Shown here: positions 7,269-30,839 of the stretch, in pieces
Position numbering within the stretch: the first letter of the stretch is position 1
Layout of the letters: every line of letters starts with the position of its first letter
Source: Candidatus Nealsonbacteria bacterium
GTDB taxonomy: Bacteria; Patescibacteriota; Minisyncoccia; Minisyncoccales; RBG-13-42-11
DNA: 31,351 nucleotides
Direction of reading: 5' to 3'
NCBI GenBank assembly: GCA_043815465.1
Contig: JBDRIW010000052.1
Span: forward strand, 1 to 31,351
The notes under the pieces: model-generated
Databases searched by the model: none
Seen by the model: only the letters and a program-made list of their open reading frames with translations
Told to the model about the DNA's origin: nothing
Translations under genes and position numbers: made by a program

Positions 7269-8204
7269 ATGATTTTTTTACTTTACGGACCAGATAATTA
7301 TAGCTCTAGAGAAAAAGTGAGAGAGATGGTAGAGCATTATAAAGAAATTCACAAAAGTGGATTAGATTTTAAATATCTTGATGGTAAGAATTTAGACTTT
7401 AGCGAGTTACTTAATGAAGACCAACAGAGCTCTATTTTTAATGAGAAAAAACTTATTGTTGTGACAAATGTTGTTTCTAATAAAGAGTTTAAAGAAAAAT
7501 TTATTAAAGGTTACAAGAAACTCATTGATAGTTCTAATATAATTGTCTTTTTAGAGGAAGATAAGATAGCAACAAATGATTCTATTTTAAAGATTTTAAA
7601 AAAGCATGCTAAATGTCAGGAATTTCCAATTTTATCTGGAGAGAAAATGAAAAGATGGGTTAAAAATGAGCTTAGTAAATTTAAGGGAGATATCTCCACA
7701 AATGCTTTAGATAAACTTTTAGAATATTGCGAAGGTAATCTATGGAGTTTAAGTAATGAGATTAAGAAGTTGGGCGCCTTTAAAATTGGAAAAACGATAG
7801 AAATAAACGATGTTGAATTATTGGTAAAACCAAAGATAGAAACAGATATTTTTAAAACTATAGATGCCATAGCTTCTAAGGATAGAAAGTCAGCTTTATT
7901 ATTACTTCATAAACATTTAGACAAAGGAGACTCTCCTCTTTACCTTTTGTCTATGATTAATTTTCAATTTAGAAATCTTTTATTGGTAAAAGATTTAATG
8001 GAAAAAGGAAAATCTTATTATGATATTCCTAAATTAACGAAGCTTCATTCATTTGTTGTTAAAAAAAGTTATCAATCAGCCCAAAGGTTTCAATATCAAG
8101 AATTACAAAAAATCTACCAAAAGATTTTTCAGGTAGATTTGTCTATTAAAACTGGTAAATTAAAACCAGAGATAGCTCTAGATATTTTTATTGCTGAGAT
8201 TTAG
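7269..8204 (+). CDS. holA: DNA polymerase III delta subunit
   Basis: FLLYGPDNY start, NEIKKL, IFKTIDAI and D-x-x-IKTG C-terminus. Confidence 0.88.
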   Translation: MIFLLYGPDNYSSREKVREMVEHYKEIHKSGLDFKYLDGKNLDFSELLNEDQQSSIFNEKKLIVVTNVVSNKEFKEKFIKGYKKLIDSSNIIVFLEEDKIATNDSILKILKKHAKCQEFPILSGEKMKRWVKNELSKFKGDISTNALDKLLEYCEGNLWSLSNEIKKLGAFKIGKTIEINDVELLVKPKIETDIFKTIDAIASKDRKSALLLLHKHLDKGDSPLYLLSMINFQFRNLLLVKDLMEKGKSYYDIPKLTKLHSFVVKKSYQSAQRFQYQELQKIYQKIFQVDLSIKTGKLKPEIALDIFIAEI

Positions 8205-24624: not shown

Positions 24625-26337
24625 ATGAATAATCAGATATTATCTAAAATATTTTATGAAATTTCAGAATATCTGAAAATGGACGAAGTACCATTTAAAC
24701 CTTACGCTTATCAGAGAGCAGCTATGTTTTTGGAAGGGTTAGAAGAAGACGTTCAAGATATTTATGATAAAGATGGAATAAAAGGATTAATAGCTCTTGA
24801 GGCAATTGGAAAAAGTATTGCAGAATTAATAGAGGAATATTTAAAAACAGGTAAGATAAAATATTATCAATCTTTTAAAAAAAGACTTCCTTTAAATTTA
24901 GGAGAGTTGATCAATGTTGAGGGAATGGGGTCTAAAAAAGCTAAAGTTCTTTTTAAAGAATTAGGAGTCATAGATTTAAAAACATTAGAAAAGGCAGCTA
25001 AATCTCATAAAATAGCTCCCCTTTTTGGTTTTGGAGAAAAAACAGAGAAGAATATTCTAGAAGGGATAGAATTTTTAAAGAGAAGCAAGGGAAGGTTTCT
25101 TTTGGGAGAAATATTGCCAGAAGTAAAAAGGATAATTAAAAAATTAGAATCGTTAAAAGAAATAGAACAAATTAGTTCAGCTGGATCTATTAGGAGGAGA
25201 AAAGATACTATAGGGGATGTCGATATTTTAATAACTACTAAAAATCCTAAAAAAGTTATGGAGTTTTTTCTATCTTTTCCAGAGATAGTTAAAGTTTGGG
25301 GAAAAGGACAAACAAAATCTTCAGTTAGGATGAAACAAGGGTTTGATGTTGATTTAAGAGTTTTAAAAAATAGAAGTTATGGTTCCGCTCTTCAATATTT
25401 TACAGGTTCAAAAGAGCACAATATAGCCACTAGAAAACTAGCTATTCAAAAAGGATTAAAGCTTTCTGAATATGGTCTATTTAAGGGGTCTAAAATGATA
25501 GCTGGTGCTTCAGAAAAAGGGATTTATAAAGCTTTGGGATTAGACTGGATAGAACCAGAGTTAAGAGAAGATAGGGGCGAAATAGAAGCAGCTAGCAAAA
25601 AGAAGTTACCTAAATTAATAGAATATAAAGATATAAAAGGAGATTTACATTGTCATTCTAATTGGGATGGAGGAGAAGATTCAATAGCCGAAATGGCCAA
25701 AACTGCAAAGAGTTTAGGATATGAATATATAGGAATTTCAGACCATACTAAATTCTTAAGAATAGAAAATGGATTAGATGAAAAACAATTAGATAAGAGA
25801 AATAAAGAGATTGATAATTTAAATAAAAAACAGAAAGACTTCAAAATTCTTAAAGGAGCTGAGGTCAATATTTTAAATGATGGGTCTATAGATATAAAAG
25901 ATGAAAGTTTGGCAAAACTAGATTACGTTATAGCTGGGATTCATTCTAATCTTAAGATGCCTAAGGACAAGATGACAGAAAGGATAGTCAAAGCTATTAA
26001 AAATCCTAATATTGATATTCTTTCTCATCCAACAGGTAGAATATTAAAAAGAAGGGATGAATATCAGTGTGATTTCGATAAAATATTAAAAGCAGCAAAA
26101 GAATATAACGTCGCTTTAGAAATAAATGCTTCCATGGAAAGAATGGATTTAAATGATCAAAATATTAAAAGAACTAAAGAAGCAGGAGTTAAAATGATTA
26201 TTAATACAGATGCTCATTATAAAAGTCATTTAAACAATATAGAATTAGGGATATCTCAAGCTAGAAGAGGTTGGGCAGAAAAAGAAGATATCATTAATAC
26301 TAATTCCGTTAAGAAATTATTAACTTATTTTAATTAG
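24625..26337 (+). CDS. polX: DNA polymerase X family / PHP 3'-5' exonuclease
   Basis: PYAYQRAA, GSIRR..TIGDVDIL, DVDLR, YFTGSKEHN, LSEYGLF, PELREDRGE, DLHCHS, SDH, HPTGR, LEIN and TDAH motifs. Confidence 0.95.
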   Translation: MNNQILSKIFYEISEYLKMDEVPFKPYAYQRAAMFLEGLEEDVQDIYDKDGIKGLIALEAIGKSIAELIEEYLKTGKIKYYQSFKKRLPLNLGELINVEGMGSKKAKVLFKELGVIDLKTLEKAAKSHKIAPLFGFGEKTEKNILEGIEFLKRSKGRFLLGEILPEVKRIIKKLESLKEIEQISSAGSIRRRKDTIGDVDILITTKNPKKVMEFFLSFPEIVKVWGKGQTKSSVRMKQGFDVDLRVLKNRSYGSALQYFTGSKEHNIATRKLAIQKGLKLSEYGLFKGSKMIAGASEKGIYKALGLDWIEPELREDRGEIEAASKKKLPKLIEYKDIKGDLHCHSNWDGGEDSIAEMAKTAKSLGYEYIGISDHTKFLRIENGLDEKQLDKRNKEIDNLNKKQKDFKILKGAEVNILNDGSIDIKDESLAKLDYVIAGIHSNLKMPKDKMTERIVKAIKNPNIDILSHPTGRILKRRDEYQCDFDKILKAAKEYNVALEINASMERMDLNDQNIKRTKEAGVKMIINTDAHYKSHLNNIELGISQARRGWAEKEDIINTNSVKKLLTYFN

Positions 26338-26340
26338 AAT

Positions 26341-26549
26341 ATACCAATCGAAAAATCAGCTGGAGTGGTATTTTTTTAACAGAAGTAAACATTGAAGAAG
26401 TTATTATTTTTTCTGAACACGAAGAAATTAAATGGGTGTCTTTCGAAAAATCATTAAAATTGTTGACTTTTTGGAACAGTAAGGATATCCTCAAAAAAGA
26501 TAATAATTATTTAAATAAACAATATGCTACCTTTAGTAGAAACAAATAG
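26341..26549 (+). pseudogene. Nudix hydrolase remnant (internal deletion, lost start)
   Basis: IPIEKSAGVVFF* (start reads ATA) followed in another frame by ...SEHEEIKWVSFEKSLKLLTFWNSKDILKK. These resemble the N- and C-termini of Ap4A-hydrolase-like Nudix proteins; the Nudix box is missing. Confidence 0.6.
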
Positions 26550-27771
26550 TAAAAGTCTTAATAAATACAAAAATTTTATTTCTCCAAAAGTCTTAAAAGA
26601 AATAAAAACTTTGAGTAAACAACTTAAGGGTCTGAAAATATTTCACGTTAATTCTGCTCCAAGGGGCGGAGGAGTAGCTGAAATATTAAAAAGTTTAGTT
26701 CCCTTAATGAAAGGAATAGGTTTAAATGCCGAATGGTATACTATTCCTGCTAGAAATAGTTTTTTTAAGATAACTAAAGAAATGCACAACGCCCTTCAGG
26801 GCAAAAGTTATAAATTTTCTTTTAAGGATAGGAAAAAATATATTCTTCACATGGCTAATACTGCAGAATTAATGGGAGATATGAAGCCAGATATTTGGGT
26901 TATACATGATCCTCAGCCAGCTGGGGTTATCATGTTTTTACCTGATTTTTATCCTGCTATTTCTAGAATACACATTGACTCAACTTCTCCGAATATGGAA
27001 GTTTGGAAGTTTGTAGCTAGTTTTTTGGAATGTTACGATAAAGTAATTTTTAGCTCTAATGATTTTATACATAGTGAAGTTAAAAATAAAGCAAAAATTA
27101 TTCAACCAGCGATAGATATGCTTAATCCCAAAAATAAACCATTACCAATTAATAAAGCCAATGATATTATTAGAACTTTTGGAGTTAATCCCGATAAACC
27201 CTTAATCTCTCAAGTTTCCAGATTTGACCCATGGAAAGATCCAGTGGGCGTTATAGAGGCTTATAAAATAGCTAAGAAAAAAATACCTGATTTGCAATTA
27301 GCTATGGTGGGTTTGATTTTAGCTAAAGATGATCCTGAAGCAGATAAAATTTATACAGAAACAAAAAAGAAAGCAGATGGTGATCCAGATATATTCCTTT
27401 TTGCCGATGTCTCAAAGTTGGGAAGCTTAAAGGTTAGTACCTTTGTTAATGCCTTTCAGGTTGCTTCAGATATAATTATTCAAAAATCTATTAGAGAAGG
27501 ATTTGGAATGACGGTGGCAGAGGCTATGTGGAAGGAAAAAGCTGTTATCGCTGGAAGAGTTGGAGGAATAAAACTTCAAATAAAAAATGGAAAGAATGGA
27601 TTTTTAGTCTCAACTCCAAAAGAAACAGCTAAAAGAATAGTTCAATTAATAGAAAATCCAGTTTTAGCGAGGAAACTTGGTAAAGAAGCTAAAAAAACCA
27701 TACAAGAAAAATTTTTAATGCCTAGACTCTTGAGAGATTATCTTAGGCTTTTTAAAGAACTTAAAAAATAA
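26524..27771 (+). CDS. treT: Glycosyltransferase family 4, trehalose synthase TreT-like
   Basis: HVNSAPRGGGVAEIL, FFKITKEMHNALQG, IHDPQP, RIHID, QVSRFDPWKDP and QKSIREGFGMTVAEAMWK. Confidence 0.85.
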   Translation: MLPLVETNSKSLNKYKNFISPKVLKEIKTLSKQLKGLKIFHVNSAPRGGGVAEILKSLVPLMKGIGLNAEWYTIPARNSFFKITKEMHNALQGKSYKFSFKDRKKYILHMANTAELMGDMKPDIWVIHDPQPAGVIMFLPDFYPAISRIHIDSTSPNMEVWKFVASFLECYDKVIFSSNDFIHSEVKNKAKIIQPAIDMLNPKNKPLPINKANDIIRTFGVNPDKPLISQVSRFDPWKDPVGVIEAYKIAKKKIPDLQLAMVGLILAKDDPEADKIYTETKKKADGDPDIFLFADVSKLGSLKVSTFVNAFQVASDIIIQKSIREGFGMTVAEAMWKEKAVIAGRVGGIKLQIKNGKNGFLVSTPKETAKRIVQLIENPVLARKLGKEAKKTIQEKFLMPRLLRDYLRLFKELKK

Positions 27772-27919
27772 AAATTATAATATTCCCTTATTATGTATGA
27801 TAATTTGGGAAGATATAATAACAATAAAAATAACTTTACTTAAAGAAGAAAGAGTGTTAATAGAAACATGGAGGGTTGTTCTTTGACAACCTATTTTAAA
27901 ATAAAAAGGAGGACATAAA

Positions 27920-29269
27920 ATGTCAGGAATTCTTGGATTTGACGTTGATACAGATTGTTGGCCAGAAACAAAAAGTGCTAGTGGTATTTTGCAACCCAGA
28001 GGAGACGAGTGGGGTGGATTCGCGGTAATTCAGGGTGATAAAATTGTCAGGGAAGCACAAAAAGGCAAAATAACACCTTTGCTTGAAAAAGAAGAATTAA
28101 AGCTAAAGAATACTCAGAAAATAATCACTCATGTAAATCAGAATCCCGAGAATCCTCAGCCGGCTAAAATAAATGAAACCAAAATGGGGCAGATTGCCTT
28201 GGCCTTTGATGGAAAGATTATTAACAAAGAAGAGTTGATAGCGAAATCACCTTATCTTGTTGGTTCAGAAGCCGGCATTATGGCGAGATTGGTTGCTTCA
28301 GAAGAAGATCCTTTAAATGGATTAAAGAAGCTACTCCAAAGTATAAAAGGTCCATTTTGTCTGGTTTTATTAACCTTGGATGGGATTTTTGCCACTAGAG
28401 ATGTTTTAGGAATTAGACCTATGATTTCTGGTAGATTTCTAGGGGATAGCAAGATAGGATGTGGCGTTGCCTCTGAATCAGCTTCCCTGGAGCACATTGG
28501 GATGGAGCTGATAAGAGACATAAGACCGGGTGAGATAATTTCAATAGCCCCAGACGGATTCAAAACGATCTATCAAGTACCTGAAGTCAATCCGGTTATT
28601 TGCAGTTTCGAATATGGCTACTGGGCCAGAATTTCTTCAACAATTGAAAATATCTGGGTTGGCGAAGTCAGGAGAAAAGCAGGGATGAAACTCGTCTCTA
28701 ATTGTCCCGAAGCAGACATTATTTCTAGCTTCCCAATGTCTGGAAGCGCAGCGGCAGAAGGATTACATCAGGCCTCGGGGATCAACTACCAAACCATTTT
28801 TGATTATAATCTTGAGGCTGGAGGAAGAAGTTTTCTTCCCTTTGACTCGGAGGTAAGAACTAAAAGAGCAAAAGATAAACTTTTAATAGTTCCCCCAGCA
28901 GTAAAGGGAAAAAGAATTGTGATAGTTGACGATTCAATTGTCGAAGGGAGGCAAACTTTAGCAAGGATATCTTCCATCAAAAGGGCAGGTTCAGAAGAAA
29001 TTCATCTTAGGATTGAAACTCCTCAGATGAAACATTCTTGTCCCTTTGACGTTACTCCAAGAGGCAAATTACTTGCTACTGATCATACGCTTGAGGAAAT
29101 GAGAAAAATCTTGGGTGTTAAGAGTTTAGAATTTAATGCAGTAGAAGACTTTGTCGATGCAATAGTTTCTTCTCAAAGTGAAAAAAGAAAGATAGAAAAT
29201 CCAATAAAGAATGAAAATATCTGTCTTGGCTGTTTCACTGGAGAATTTCCAAAGTACCCTAATTTTTAA
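27920..29269 (+). CDS. Amidophosphoribosyltransferase (PurF) homologue lacking the catalytic Cys1
   Basis: RDVLGIRP, SESASL, CSFEYGYWAR, VDDSIVEG, IHLRI and CLGCFTG mark the PurF fold. The N-terminus is MSGILG rather than MCGIxG. AGGAGG SD is present. Confidence 0.85.
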   Translation: MSGILGFDVDTDCWPETKSASGILQPRGDEWGGFAVIQGDKIVREAQKGKITPLLEKEELKLKNTQKIITHVNQNPENPQPAKINETKMGQIALAFDGKIINKEELIAKSPYLVGSEAGIMARLVASEEDPLNGLKKLLQSIKGPFCLVLLTLDGIFATRDVLGIRPMISGRFLGDSKIGCGVASESASLEHIGMELIRDIRPGEIISIAPDGFKTIYQVPEVNPVICSFEYGYWARISSTIENIWVGEVRRKAGMKLVSNCPEADIISSFPMSGSAAAEGLHQASGINYQTIFDYNLEAGGRSFLPFDSEVRTKRAKDKLLIVPPAVKGKRIVIVDDSIVEGRQTLARISSIKRAGSEEIHLRIETPQMKHSCPFDVTPRGKLLATDHTLEEMRKILGVKSLEFNAVEDFVDAIVSSQSEKRKIENPIKNENICLGCFTGEFPKYPNF

Positions 29270-29285
29270 ATATCATAAAAGAATT

Positions 29286-29321
29286 AAAAGTCTCCATCTT
29301 TTTAAATGGAGACCTTTTTTG
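29286..29321. terminator. Bidirectional terminator between convergent purF-like gene and rplT
   Basis: gtctccat / atggagac stem with an A-run before and a T-run after. Confidence 0.75.
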
Positions 29322-29872: not shown

Positions 29873-30382
29873 TTATTTTTTGGAAATTATCATTGTAAAT
29901 CCTCTGGGTTCTCTTTTCAATTCTTTTTCTGTTTTTATTGGTATTATTTCATTTAAAGACTCAAGGAAGCTCATCATTTTCTCTCTTCCAAAATCCCCTA
30001 AGGCTTTTTGTCTTCCTCTTAAAGGCAGGTCTATTCTCACCGTATCTCCCTTTTTAAGAAACTTTTCGGCTAAATTGGCCCTTGTCTCCATATCGTGCTT
30101 TGAAATGTTGTAAGTGAGTCTTATCGCCTTCAATTCCCCGCCTTTATTTTTACGGTTATGTTTTTCTTTTTTTTCTTCTTGATATAAATATTTTCCGATA
30201 TTTCCTATTTTACAAACAGGGGGCTCAACTTTTTCTGTTACCTGAATAAGGTCTAGGCTCTTTTCTTTGGCTAAACTAAGACCCTCTTCCAAAGGAACAA
30301 TTCCAAGTTGATTTCCAATTTCATCTATCAATCTTATTTCTGTAGCCCTTATTTGGTTGTTTATAAAAATTCTTTTAGGCAA
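29873..30382 (-). CDS. infC: Translation initiation factor IF-3 (TTG start)
   Basis: INNQIRATEIRLID, LDLIQV, PPVCKI, KFLKKGDTV and LRGR. The start codon is TTG, with an in-frame TAA three codons upstream. Confidence 0.96.
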   Translation of the reverse strand: MPKRIFINNQIRATEIRLIDEIGNQLGIVPLEEGLSLAKEKSLDLIQVTEKVEPPVCKIGNIGKYLYQEEKKEKHNRKNKGGELKAIRLTYNISKHDMETRANLAEKFLKKGDTVRIDLPLRGRQKALGDFGREKMMSFLESLNEIIPIKTEKELKREPRGFTMIISKK

Positions 30383-30839
30383 TTTCTTTTATTAATTTTG
30401 TTCTTGGTAATATTTCAAAAAACTTTTTTAAAAATATAGCCCTTTTTTTGTTAATTATCAAAGAATATTTTCCATTTCTTGGAGTGACTTTGACGTACTC
30501 TTTGATTACTAATTTCGACCTGATTAATTTATATGTTTTCAAATAAGGCAGAATCTGTTTTAGGATGTTTAAAGCTTGTCGATTTCTTACTCTGTAAATA
30601 TAGGCGATACAATGATTTTCATTTTTACTCATTTTTACTCTTATGTCTCCAGCTCCTATAGTCTTTTTTACCCACTTAAGCATATAAAGGTCTGTATTAT
30701 CTATTTCTACTAATAATGATCTGTTTTTATTTGCATTAGTGCGACTTAAAGTTACAGTTCCTTCTCCATCTATTAATCCGGCTAAATAACCAGCCTCCTC
30801 AGGCTTCAAACTATTAATTTTATTATACTTTATTTTCAT
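30375..30839 (-). CDS. Single-motif LAGLIDADG homing endonuclease-like protein (free-standing)
   Basis: AGYLAGLIDGEGTV motif, IDNTD, ILPYLKTYK; 154 aa. Confidence 0.9.
   Translation of the reverse strand: MKIKYNKINSLKPEEAGYLAGLIDGEGTVTLSRTNANKNRSLLVEIDNTDLYMLKWVKKTIGAGDIRVKMSKNENHCIAYIYRVRNRQALNILKQILPYLKTYKLIRSKLVIKEYVKVTPRNGKYSLIINKKRAIFLKKFFEILPRTKLIKEIA

What the first reader, a model, noticed from the sequence alone, without database searches (positions are those of the whole stretch)
27920..29269. PurF homologue with a dismantled glutaminase site but retained Fe-S cysteines, apparently acquired
Seen: Cys1 is replaced by Ser (MSGILG), the GHxRY glutamine-binding motif becomes THVNQ, the HNG oxyanion motif becomes FDG, and the PRPP loop VDDSIVRGTT becomes VDDSIVEGRQT. 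Four Cys equivalent to the B. subtilis-type 4Fe-4S ligands remain (CSFE, HSCP, CLGC). No other pur gene is adjacent. It has a strong SD and higher GC (26/60 at 28681-28740 versus 13/60 at 7441-7500; spot counts only). Inference: it may be an ammonia-dependent or reverse-acting PRTase, a Ser-Ntn hydrolase, or an Fe-S/nucleotide sensor rather than a purine-synthesis enzyme.
Basis: partly seen in the sequence, partly recalled or inferred. Interest (0 to 1): 0.62.

Follow-up and report, generated by a model that had tools for sequence, protein, structure and literature searches.

The report
Orphan cysteine-less PurF paralogue
This tiny-genome bacterium keeps, under strong selection, a remodelled copy of the first purine-synthesis enzyme although no other tested part of that pathway or the enzyme's usual substrate supply was found in its assembly, so the protein probably does a different job, which remains unknown.

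Summary
ORF 27920-29269 has the PurF fold (AlphaFold pLDDT 89; TM 0.86 to B. subtilis PurF). All four [4Fe-4S] cysteines are kept. Cys1 is Ser, Arg73 is Asn, Asn101 is Asp and the PRPP loop reads DDSIVEGRQT. It is the most GC-rich stretch of the window.

It is not a decaying gene. It belongs to a tight subfamily, here called D-type or 'EGNQ': 59 cluster representatives, 54-82% identical, dN/dS 0.06-0.10, both domains equally conserved.

It occupies the slot where related Patescibacteria carry purF, often beside guaB. No purD, purM or PRPP synthase was found in eight small D-type genomes, including this one. Three 2-3 Mb Chloroflexi-labelled genomes carry it alongside a canonical PurF.

It is therefore a neofunctionalised member of the Cys-less PurF' kind (Brown et al. 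2011), but with direct PRPP 5-phosphate contacts replaced. The substrate is unknown. Ammonia-dependent phosphoribosylamine synthesis is unlikely in this genome, though it remains plausible for the sister E-type.

'Acquired' is partly right. The allele's synonymous divergence is about twice that of its flanks against the closest relative, which points to exchange among Patescibacteria at a conserved locus.

First readers of this scan noted the same subfamily on two other genomes, and follow-ups described related PurF' types.

The parts
27908..27912 (+). Shine-Dalgarno GGAGG, 7 nt upstream of the ATG
   Evidence: Read from the sequence.
27920..29269 (+). D-type ('EGNQ') Cys-less PurF paralogue, 449 aa
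   Evidence: ORF. TIGR01134 scores 195 bits against a cut-off of 350. PDB 1ao0 matches at E 1e-53. AlphaFold2 pLDDT is 89, with TM 0.86 to 1ao0.
27920..28594 (+). Ntn (former glutaminase) domain, residues 1-225. Ser2, Asp29, Trp31, Asn73, Gln74, Asp97 and Glu117 replace Cys1, Gln, Gly, Arg73, Tyr74, Asn101 and Asp127.
   Evidence: Alignments. Family-wide counts and mean pairwise identity of 64.7%. Pfam GATase_7 scores 27 bits.
28595..29266 (+). PRTase-type domain plus C-terminal Fe-S segment, residues 226-449
   Evidence: Alignment to 1ao0. Mean pairwise identity in the family is 68.9%. Pfam Pribosyltran scores only 14.9 bits.
28928..28957 (+). Remodelled PRPP loop D337-D-S-I-V-E-G-R-Q-T346. 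The family consensus is DDSIVEGNQT and the canonical loop is DDSIVRGTTS.
   Evidence: Glu342 is 59/59 and Gln345 is 59/59. The E. coli equivalents Arg371 and Thr374 hydrogen-bond cPRPP in simulations (PMC7953260).
28736..28747 (+). PPi-loop equivalent P272-M-S-G275 (canonical P-D-S-S/G)
   Evidence: Met is 51/59, and Asp is not among the four commonest residues listed for this position.
28808..28882 (+). Flexible-loop equivalent (N297 to L321), with Arg303, Ser304, Arg313 and Lys320 kept and an extra Gly301
   Evidence: Arg303 and Lys320 are 59/59. Model pLDDT falls to 61-74 here, as expected for a mobile loop.
28601..28603 (+). Cys228 codon, Fe-S ligand 1
29039..29041 (+). Cys374 codon, Fe-S ligand 2
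29222..29233 (+). Cys435-x-x-Cys438, Fe-S ligands 3 and 4
29286..29321 (.). Hairpin plus T-runs between the convergent PurF-like and rplT genes (terminator-like on both strands)

Best explanation
The gene encodes a neofunctionalised, glutamine-independent [4Fe-4S] PurF paralogue. It belongs to a distinct 'EGNQ' (D-type) subfamily of the Cys-less PurF' kind.

**Shown**
- It has the two-domain PurF fold.
- It keeps the four cluster cysteines, the ribose-binding Asp-Asp-Ser and the flexible-loop Arg303 and Lys320.
- Every residue needed to bind and hydrolyse glutamine is replaced.
- Two residues that contact the 5-phosphate of PRPP are replaced: Arg to Glu and Thr to Gln. The PPi-loop Asp is also replaced.
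- These new residues are themselves invariant.
- Both domains are under strong purifying selection.
- The gene sits in the slot where relatives carry purF.
- It persists in genomes where no purD, purM or PRPP synthase was found.
- It was also passed to Chloroflexi-labelled genomes that already have a canonical PurF.

**Inferred**
- It no longer starts purine synthesis.
- It still uses the PurF two-site architecture. The acidified former glutamine pocket (Asp29, Asp97, Glu/Asp117) would bind a cation or amine.
- The altered PRTase pocket would bind a ribosyl-(di)phosphate or nucleotide-like ligand that lacks a conventional 5-phosphate contact.
- It then either performs C1' ribosyl-transfer chemistry on a substrate other than PRPP, or reports the presence of that ligand.
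- The substrate is not identified.
For: - **Fold and residues.**
- **Family conservation.** 59 representatives at 54-82% identity. Asp29, Glu342, Gln345 and the four Cys are 59/59. The N-domain (64.7%) is about as conserved as the PRTase domain (68.9%).
- **Selection.** dN/dS is 0.06 against L029 and 0.10 against L030. The protein is about as conserved as L20, IF3 and PolX.
- **Position.** It sits in the same syntenic slot as canonical-looking purF in the order.
- **Pathway genes.** No purD, purM or prs was found in G000, G123, G125, G126 (G126 = G021, 99% complete), G127, G128 or G132.
- **Other enzymes of the N-glycosidic bond.** G000 has no other PRTase hit and no hit to the two nucleoside phosphorylase families tested.
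- **Coexistence.** It occurs with a canonical PurF (523-530 bits) in three 2-3 Mb genomes.
- **PRPP contacts.** In E. coli, Arg371 and Thr374 contact cPRPP in simulations (PMC7953260).
Against: - No substrate, partner or informative operon was found. The upstream polX-nudix-treT-atl string is general synteny shared with other PurF types.
- The sister E-type carries the same EGNQ loop. It is the only PurF homologue in two genomes that have purD and purM, with guaB next door. The loop may therefore still accept PRPP.
- One D-type genome (G124/G068: 1.5 Mb, 260 contigs, 85% complete) has purM, prs and an adjacent guaB.
- G021 has a PyrE-like ORF, so some PRPP use without a recognisable prs cannot be excluded.
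- MAG incompleteness: the home assembly is 86.6% complete.
Confidence: 0.55

Rival explanations
1. Ammonia-dependent phosphoribosylamine synthase, the PurF' hypothesis. The dead glutaminase domain only delivers free NH3/NH4+ to a still PRPP-using PRTase site.
For: - Brown et al. 2011 proposed this for Cys-less PurF'. They cite that E. coli Cys1 mutants keep NH3-dependent activity (PMC3261824).
- Asp-Asp-Ser, Arg303 and Lys320 are retained.
- The sister E-type, with the same EGNQ loop, is the only PurF homologue in two genomes with purD and purM, and sits beside guaB.
- The acidic former glutamine pocket could hold NH4+ (inference).
Against: - Eight small D-type genomes gave no purD, purM or prs, so there would be neither substrate nor consumer.
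- The equivalents of Arg371 and Thr374, which contact PRPP, are Glu and Gln in 59/59.
- The PPi-loop Asp is replaced.
- In the Chloroflexi-labelled genomes a canonical PurF is already present.
Confidence: 0.2
2. Non-catalytic Fe-S or nucleotide sensor (a pseudoenzyme). The PurF scaffold is kept only to bind a ligand or to report cluster integrity to a partner.
For: - Catalytic residues are lost in one domain and substrate contacts are altered in the other, yet purifying selection is strong.
- From established knowledge, PRTase folds have been reused as regulators (B. subtilis PurR, PyrR), and the B. subtilis PurF cluster is oxygen-labile.
Against: - There is no DNA- or RNA-binding domain and no conserved partner gene.
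- The catalytic Asp-Asp-Ser and the flexible loop are invariant, which ligand sensing alone would not require.
Confidence: 0.15
3. Ser-Ntn hydrolase. After Met removal, Ser1 replaces Cys1 as nucleophile and hydrolyses an amide other than glutamine.
For: - Ser is at position 2 in 58/59 members.
- A small second residue allows Met removal.
- Ser and Thr Ntn hydrolases exist (established knowledge).
Against: - P0037 has Ala, and sister-clade members have Ala.
- The oxyanion-hole Asn101 is Asp in 58/59.
- The carboxylate-binding Arg73 is gone.
- E. coli Cys1Ser PurF has no glutaminase activity, as cited in PMC3261824.
Confidence: 0.05
4. Decaying relic of purF after loss of the purine pathway.
For: No purD, purM or prs was found in the host genome, and the canonical motifs are lost.
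Against: - dN/dS is 0.06-0.10.
- There are 68 invariant positions across 59 representatives.
- The frame is intact in all loci.
- The replaced residues are themselves invariant.
- The gene has been retained after transfer into Chloroflexi-labelled genomes.
Confidence: 0.02

Closest known systems
Glutamine PRPP amidotransferase PurF, [4Fe-4S] type (B. subtilis, PDB 1ao0/1gph; TIGR01134; EC 2.4.2.14)
   Same: - Two-domain Ntn plus PRTase fold (TM 0.86).
- Similar length.
- Four cluster cysteines.
- Asp-Asp-Ser of the PRPP loop.
- Flexible-loop Arg and Lys.
- Occupies the purF slot of the locus.
   Different: - No Cys1, Arg73, Tyr74 or Asn101.
- PRPP loop Arg-Gly-Thr-Thr is Glu-Gly-Asn/Arg-Gln.
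- PPi-loop Asp is Met.
- HMM score is 195 bits against a cut-off of 350.
- No purD, purM or prs was found in the host genome.
PurF' of Crenarchaeota (Brown, Hoopes, White and Sarisky 2011, Biol Direct 6:63, PMC3261824)
   Same: - PurF-like proteins that lack the N-terminal Cys (Ala, Val or Ser instead).
- They form a cluster apart from true PurF.
- No function has been demonstrated.
   Different: - PurF' sits next to purF and other purine genes in purine-synthesising archaea, and was proposed to use ammonia.
- The D-type branches with Patescibacteria PurF-like proteins. In the tree built here no crenarchaeal PurF' sequence was included, so its relation to them is untested.
- The D-type also has altered PRPP and PPi loops.
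- In Patescibacteria it occurs without the pathway genes tested.
E-type sister clade (RGDK...DDSIVEGNQ; e.g. Candidatus Paceibacter normanii SCGC AAA255-P19, Parcubacteria CG1_02_39_15)
   Same: - Shares Asp29, Asp97, the EGNQ loop and the Fe-S cysteines.
- Same syntenic slot.
- Sister to the D-type in the tree (SH-aLRT 89; each clade 100).
   Different: - Only 33-40% identical.
- Carries an insert after the PRPP loop.
- Position 2 is Ala or Ser.
- Its genomes have purD and purM, with guaB adjacent.

Membership tests
PurF (TIGR01134, EC 2.4.2.14) | Two-domain Ntn-glutaminase plus type I PRTase fold | tested here: met
   The AlphaFold2 model has pLDDT 89. Foldseek top hit is 1ao0 with TM 0.86.
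PurF (TIGR01134, EC 2.4.2.14) | Score above the curated equivalog cut-off | tested here: not met
   195.4 bits against a cut-off of 350.
PurF (TIGR01134, EC 2.4.2.14) | N-terminal Cys nucleophile, with Arg73, Asn101-Gly102 and Asp127 for glutamine binding and hydrolysis | tested here: not met
   The residues here are Ser2, Asn73, Asp97 and Glu117. Family-wide: Ser 58/59, Asp97 58/59, and Arg is not among the residues found at position 73 (N 46, S 12, I 1).
PurF (TIGR01134, EC 2.4.2.14) | Canonical PRPP loop DDSIVRGTT and PPi loop PDS | tested here: not met
   The loops read DDSIVEG(N/R)QT and P(M)SG. Asp-Asp-Ser is kept, but Arg is Glu and Thr is Gln in 59/59.
PurF (TIGR01134, EC 2.4.2.14) | Works with the other de novo purine genes and with PRPP synthase | tested here: not met
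   No purD, purM, purA or prs was found in G000 (86.6% complete). The same holds for purD, purM and prs in seven other small D-type genomes.
PurF, B. subtilis [4Fe-4S] subtype | Four Cys ligands (B. subtilis Cys236, Cys382, Cys437, Cys440) | tested here: met
   Cys228, Cys374, Cys435 and Cys438 align with them and are 59/59. Presence of the cluster itself cannot be tested with these tools.
PurF' (Brown et al. 2011) | PurF homologue without the N-terminal Cys, clustering apart from true PurF | tested here: met
   The D and E clades each have 100 support. They are separated from the canonical PurF clade, which also has 100 support. The definition is read from PMC3261824.
PurF' (Brown et al. 2011) | Encoded near purF and other purine genes | tested here: not met
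   This is not the case in Patescibacteria. Only in two Chloroflexi-labelled genomes is it 5.4 kb from purF.
Type I phosphoribosyltransferase domain (Pfam PF00156) | Domain score above the gathering threshold | tested here: not met
   14.9 bits against 26.3. The protein's Pfam scan returned GATase_7 only.
Ser/Thr Ntn hydrolases | Invariant N-terminal nucleophile with a competent oxyanion hole | tested here: inconclusive
   Ser is 58/59, but one member has Ala. The sister clade has Ala or Ser. The oxyanion Asn is replaced by Asp.

The most novel reading that the evidence does not exclude
The D-type protein is a PRPP-independent enzyme of the N-glycosidic bond. No PRTase, PNP/UDP-type or thymidine/AMP-phosphorylase-type enzyme was found in this genome, so it would be the only such enzyme detected.

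It would use the old PurF two-site machine on a scavenged ribosyl donor, for example a nucleotide, nucleoside, ribose-1-phosphate or NAD-derived ribose. It would either salvage bases and ribose or, running backwards with PPi, make PRPP in cells without PRPP synthase.

That would be a new route of nucleotide salvage in ultra-small episymbiotic bacteria, useful enough to have been picked up by Chloroflexi.
Probability: 0.15. Interest if true: 0.8.

Novelty: new variant of a known kind. Interest (0 to 1): 0.55.

Why it matters
Databases label this whole group 'amidophosphoribosyltransferase'. That label wrongly credits purine-auxotrophic Patescibacteria with the first step of purine synthesis.

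In a genome of roughly half a megabase, a 449-residue Fe-S protein conserved as strongly as ribosomal proteins must matter to the cell.

The locus also gives a natural series. It runs from canonical purF, through Cys1-bearing intermediates, to two Cys-less types, all in the same slot. This shows how the first enzyme of a lost pathway can be repurposed and exchanged between lineages.

Finding its ligand could reveal an unknown step of nucleotide or ribose scavenging in episymbiotic bacteria.

Tried and rejected
- **Literature.** Four searches for a characterised Cys-less PurF in Patescibacteria found nothing relevant. The Lipocone preprint mentions an amidophosphoribosyltransferase only in an unrelated operon.
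- **Protein atlas.** The feature search returned only generic 'amidophosphoribosyltransferase' clusters.
- **Cluster names.** Intermediates carried no informative names.
- **Operon context.**
  - The upstream polX-nudix-treT-atl string looked like a DNA-repair link. It is shared with the other PurF types at this site and is partly deleted in this window, so I did not use it for function.
  - The Chloroflexi contexts (rplKAJL, tldD/pmbA; ABC transporter, MarR) are uninformative.
- **RuBisCO / AMP-phosphorylase nucleotide route.** Not found in the genome.
- **Extra invariant Cys181.** I considered it as a relocated nucleophile. I rejected this because Cys1-bearing relatives P0122, P0125 and P0127 also have it.
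- **Recent foreign insertion.** I rejected this as the explanation for the high GC. The gene is more GC-rich than its flanks in every Patescibacteria host examined, and its GC3 tracks host GC.
Full report
**1. The observation**

The ORF runs 27920..29269 on the + strand and encodes 449 residues. A GGAGG lies 7 nt upstream of the ATG. A hairpin with a T-run follows the stop codon, between this gene and the convergent rplT.

- Pfam sees only GATase_7 (27 bits).
- NCBIfam purF scores 195 bits against a cut-off of 350.
- The best solved relative is B. subtilis PurF 1ao0/1gph, at E 1e-53.
- An AlphaFold2 model built on a family alignment has pLDDT 89 and pTM 0.89. It superposes on 1ao0 with TM 0.86.

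| Canonical PurF | This protein |
|---|---|
| Cys1 | Ser2 |
| GHVRY (Arg73, Tyr74) | THVNQ |
| HNG (Asn101) | FDG |
| SDTE (Asp127) | SEAG |
| PDS (PPi loop) | PMS |
| DDSIVRGTTS (PRPP loop) | DDSIVEGRQT |

Cys228, Cys374, Cys435 and Cys438 align with the four cluster ligands of the B. subtilis type.

The GC spot counts are exact.
- The gene has the highest GC, GC12 and GC3 of 30 ORFs in the window: 0.394 against 0.302 +/- 0.028, and GC3 0.311 against 0.209 +/- 0.032.
- It is the most GC-rich 1350-nt stretch of the window.

**2. It is a family, not a mutant**

A search of about 5.8 billion proteins gave 61 clusters at 54-82% identity. There is then a sharp drop to 39% or below.

In 59 full-length representatives:
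- Ser2 is 58/59, with Ala in P0037.
- Asp29 is 59/59, Trp31 58/59 and Asp97 58/59.
- Glu342 is 59/59 and Gln345 59/59.
- All four cysteines are 59/59.
- 68 positions are invariant.
- The former glutaminase domain (64.7% mean pairwise identity) is about as conserved as the PRTase domain (68.9%).

dN/dS is 0.06 against L029 and 0.10 against L030. Across lineages the protein is about as conserved as L20, IF3 and PolX. This excludes simple decay.

I call this the D-type or 'EGNQ' subfamily.
- A profile search of 1.84 billion representatives shows it is small, with roughly ten 50%-identity clusters scoring above the canonical PurF continuum.
- Exact-motif scanning of 185,579 species genomes found 10 D-type and 2 sister E-type carriers.

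**3. The locus**

In every Patescibacteria locus fetched, the gene lies at the end of a same-strand string. The string reads polX-(nudix)-(treT)-(atl-like DNA_binding_1)-(guaB), and the gene is convergent with rplT-rpmI-infC-ssrA-smpB.

Of 121 genomes sampled from the same order, 30 carry a PurF homologue. All 12 that I fetched have it at this site. There the flanking proteins are 54-71% identical to the window's, while the PurF homologue ranges from 27% to 74%.

By motifs the site holds several types:

| Type | Features |
|---|---|
| A | Canonical-looking PurF |
| S | Semi-canonical |
| B | Cys-less, with an intact PRPP loop |
| C | 'GHVSL' type |
| D | This subfamily |
| E | Sister of D |

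In a maximum-likelihood tree:
- A and S fall inside the canonical PurF clade (support 100).
- D and E are sisters (support 89; each clade 100).
- D and E sit at the end of a ladder of Patescibacteria sequences that still have Cys1: P0127, P0125 and P0122 (three nodes at 99).
- P0125 sits in the same slot, directly after guaB.

The D-type is therefore the positional and phylogenetic descendant of a purF.

**4. Was it acquired?**

This is not a foreign insertion, but the allele has moved.

- Against the closest relative, L030:
  - The flanking proteins PolX, L20, IF3 and MFS are 85-93% identical.
  - The neighbouring genes have dS of 0.36-0.73.
  - The D-type gene has dS 1.33 and only 77% amino-acid identity.
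- Against L029:
  - The D-type is 82% identical.
  - The flanks are only 45-70% identical, and their dS is saturated or not computable.
- Two congeners, G115 and G058:
  - Their flanks are 78-82% identical.
  - They carry E-type and S-type homologues that are only 24% identical to each other, in the same slot.

I read the locus as a conserved site where old PurF lineages are swapped by recombination.

The gene is more GC-rich than its flanks in every Patescibacteria host. Its GC3 tracks host GC, ranging from 0.30 to 0.56. The GC excess is therefore a family trait and not a sign of recent arrival. I cannot explain it.

A D-type clade in three 2-3 Mb genomes labelled Chloroflexia or Dehalococcoidales is nested inside the Patescibacteria diversity. 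In those genomes the gene's GC matches its flanks. This suggests one transfer from Patescibacteria into that lineage.

**5. Metabolic context**

| Genome(s) | Finding |
|---|---|
| G000, the home assembly (489 kb, 86.6% complete) | No purD, purM, purA, prs or RuBisCO; no IMPDH above 18.6 bits |
| G000 | No PNP_UDP_1 and no Glycos_transf_3. The only Pribosyltran-like hit is this gene |
| Seven other small D-type genomes (0.5-0.6 Mb, including G021/G126 at 99% complete) | No purD, purM or prs |
| G124/G068 (1.5 Mb, 260 contigs, 85% complete) | The exception: it has purM, prs and an adjacent guaB |
| Type A genomes | Carry purD, purM, IMPDH and mostly prs |
| Three Chloroflexi-labelled genomes | A canonical PurF (523-530 bits) as well as the D-type, 5.4 kb apart in two of them |
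| Both E-type species genomes | purD and purM present, guaB adjacent, and no other PurF homologue |

Some D-type genomes have one further PRTase-domain ORF.
- Two of these are ComF-type, judged by eye from N-terminal CxxC pairs plus a PRTase motif.
- One, in G021, looks PyrE-like by sequence motifs.

**6. What it most likely does**

Glutamine hydrolysis is out. The nucleophile, the carboxylate-binding Arg and the oxyanion Asn are all gone. E. coli Cys1 to Ser or Ala enzymes have no glutamine-dependent activity, as cited in PMC3261824.

A Ser1 Ntn mechanism is weakened for two reasons. Ala occurs in P0037 and in E-type members. The oxyanion residue is now an Asp.

In the PRTase half:
- Kept: the ribose-binding Asp-Asp-Ser, which is needed for activity in Arabidopsis GPRAT2 (PMC7056826), and the flexible-loop Arg303, Ser304 and Lys320.
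- Replaced: the equivalents of E. coli Arg371 and Thr374 are invariantly Glu and Gln. Both residues hydrogen-bond cPRPP in simulations (PMC7953260).
- Also replaced: the PPi-loop Asp.

No prs or purD was found in these genomes either. This argues that the D-type no longer makes phosphoribosylamine for purines.

My best reading, at about 0.55, is a repurposed two-site protein.
- It binds a ribosyl or nucleotide-type ligand other than PRPP, and perhaps a cation or amine in the acidified N-domain pocket.
- Whether it turns the ligand over or only senses it cannot be decided from sequence.

The ammonia-dependent PurF' idea (about 0.2) remains plausible for the E-type. If the E-type proves active with the same EGNQ loop, that rival should be upgraded for the D-type as well.

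**7. Comparison with what is known**

Cys-less PurF paralogues were named PurF' in Crenarchaeota in 2011. Their function is untested and ammonia use was proposed (PMC3261824).

Earlier notes of this scan describe other PurF'-type families that sit in purine operons with intact PRPP loops. Two first-reader notes describe this same D-type on other genomes. I treated these as leads only.

The D-type differs from those families in four ways:
- its PRPP and PPi loops are remodelled;
- it occurs in genomes where no purD, purM or prs was found;
- it shows allele exchange at a conserved locus;
- it has spread to Chloroflexi-labelled genomes.

I file it as a new variant of a known kind.

**8. Limits**

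- All genomes are MAGs, and absences refer to what was assembled.
- Organism labels such as 'Saccharibacteria' and 'Chloroflexia' are the submitters'.
- The trees used a quick search with SH-aLRT support only.
- dS values above about 1.5 are near saturation, and the NG86 method ignores the gene's composition bias.
- No biochemical claim was tested.

Noticed in passing
L021 (G115) and L027 (G058), same genus by the tool's label: At the identical slot, with flanking proteins 78-82% identical (IMPDH, L20, IF3 and another ORF), the two genomes carry PurF homologues only 24% identical to each other: E-type versus semi-canonical S-type. This looks like in-situ replacement of one old PurF lineage by another.
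   Followed up: partly
L036, L037, L038 (genomes G129-G131, 2-3 Mb, labelled Chloroflexia/Dehalococcoidales): A D-type clade is nested within the Patescibacteria D-types. The carrier genomes also have a canonical PurF (523-530 bits), 5.4 kb away in two of them. The gene's GC equals its flanks there. This suggests transfer from Patescibacteria to Chloroflexi.
   Followed up: partly
L040 (Parcubacteria CG1_02_39_15) and L041 (Candidatus Paceibacter normanii SCGC AAA255-P19): The E-type sister clade (MSA/MAG start, RGDK, same DDSIVEGNQ loop) is the only PurF homologue in two genomes that have purD and purM, and it lies directly after guaB. It is a candidate ammonia-dependent first enzyme of purine synthesis.
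   Followed up: partly
window 26338-26523 and 27772-27919, compared with L030: The closest relative has a NUDIX gene between polX and treT, and a small MGMT-like DNA_binding_1 (atl-like) gene directly upstream of the PurF-like gene. Both are missing from this window, which has only short intergenic gaps there.
   Followed up: partly
L042 (G126 = G021, contig 2, 6700-8000): A 217-aa ORF that looks PyrE-like by sequence motifs. Its genome is 99% complete yet has no recognisable PRPP synthase. The source of PRPP there, if any, is unexplained.
   Followed up: no
window 24625-26337 and 26524-27771: A PolX-type polymerase with a PHP domain and a TreT-like GT1 glycosyltransferase lie upstream. Both are conserved at 63-92% across the order and form part of a stable gene string.
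   Followed up: partly
window 30375-30839 (-): A free-standing LAGLIDADG endonuclease gene overlaps the infC start. Two searched relatives' loci (L002 and L029) show no gene called between infC and the smpB side.
   Followed up: no
L026 and L028 (G108, G086): Semi-canonical S-type PurF homologues at the same slot have lost the first Cys of the C-terminal CxxC pair (LSMGC, LTMGC). These probably no longer bind the Fe-S cluster.
   Followed up: no
window 28460-28462 (Cys181): An extra invariant Cys lies in an enlarged hairpin (KIGCGVASES). It is shared by the D- and E-types and by Cys1-bearing relatives P0122, P0125 and P0127, and is absent from canonical PurF. Its role is unknown.
   Followed up: partly
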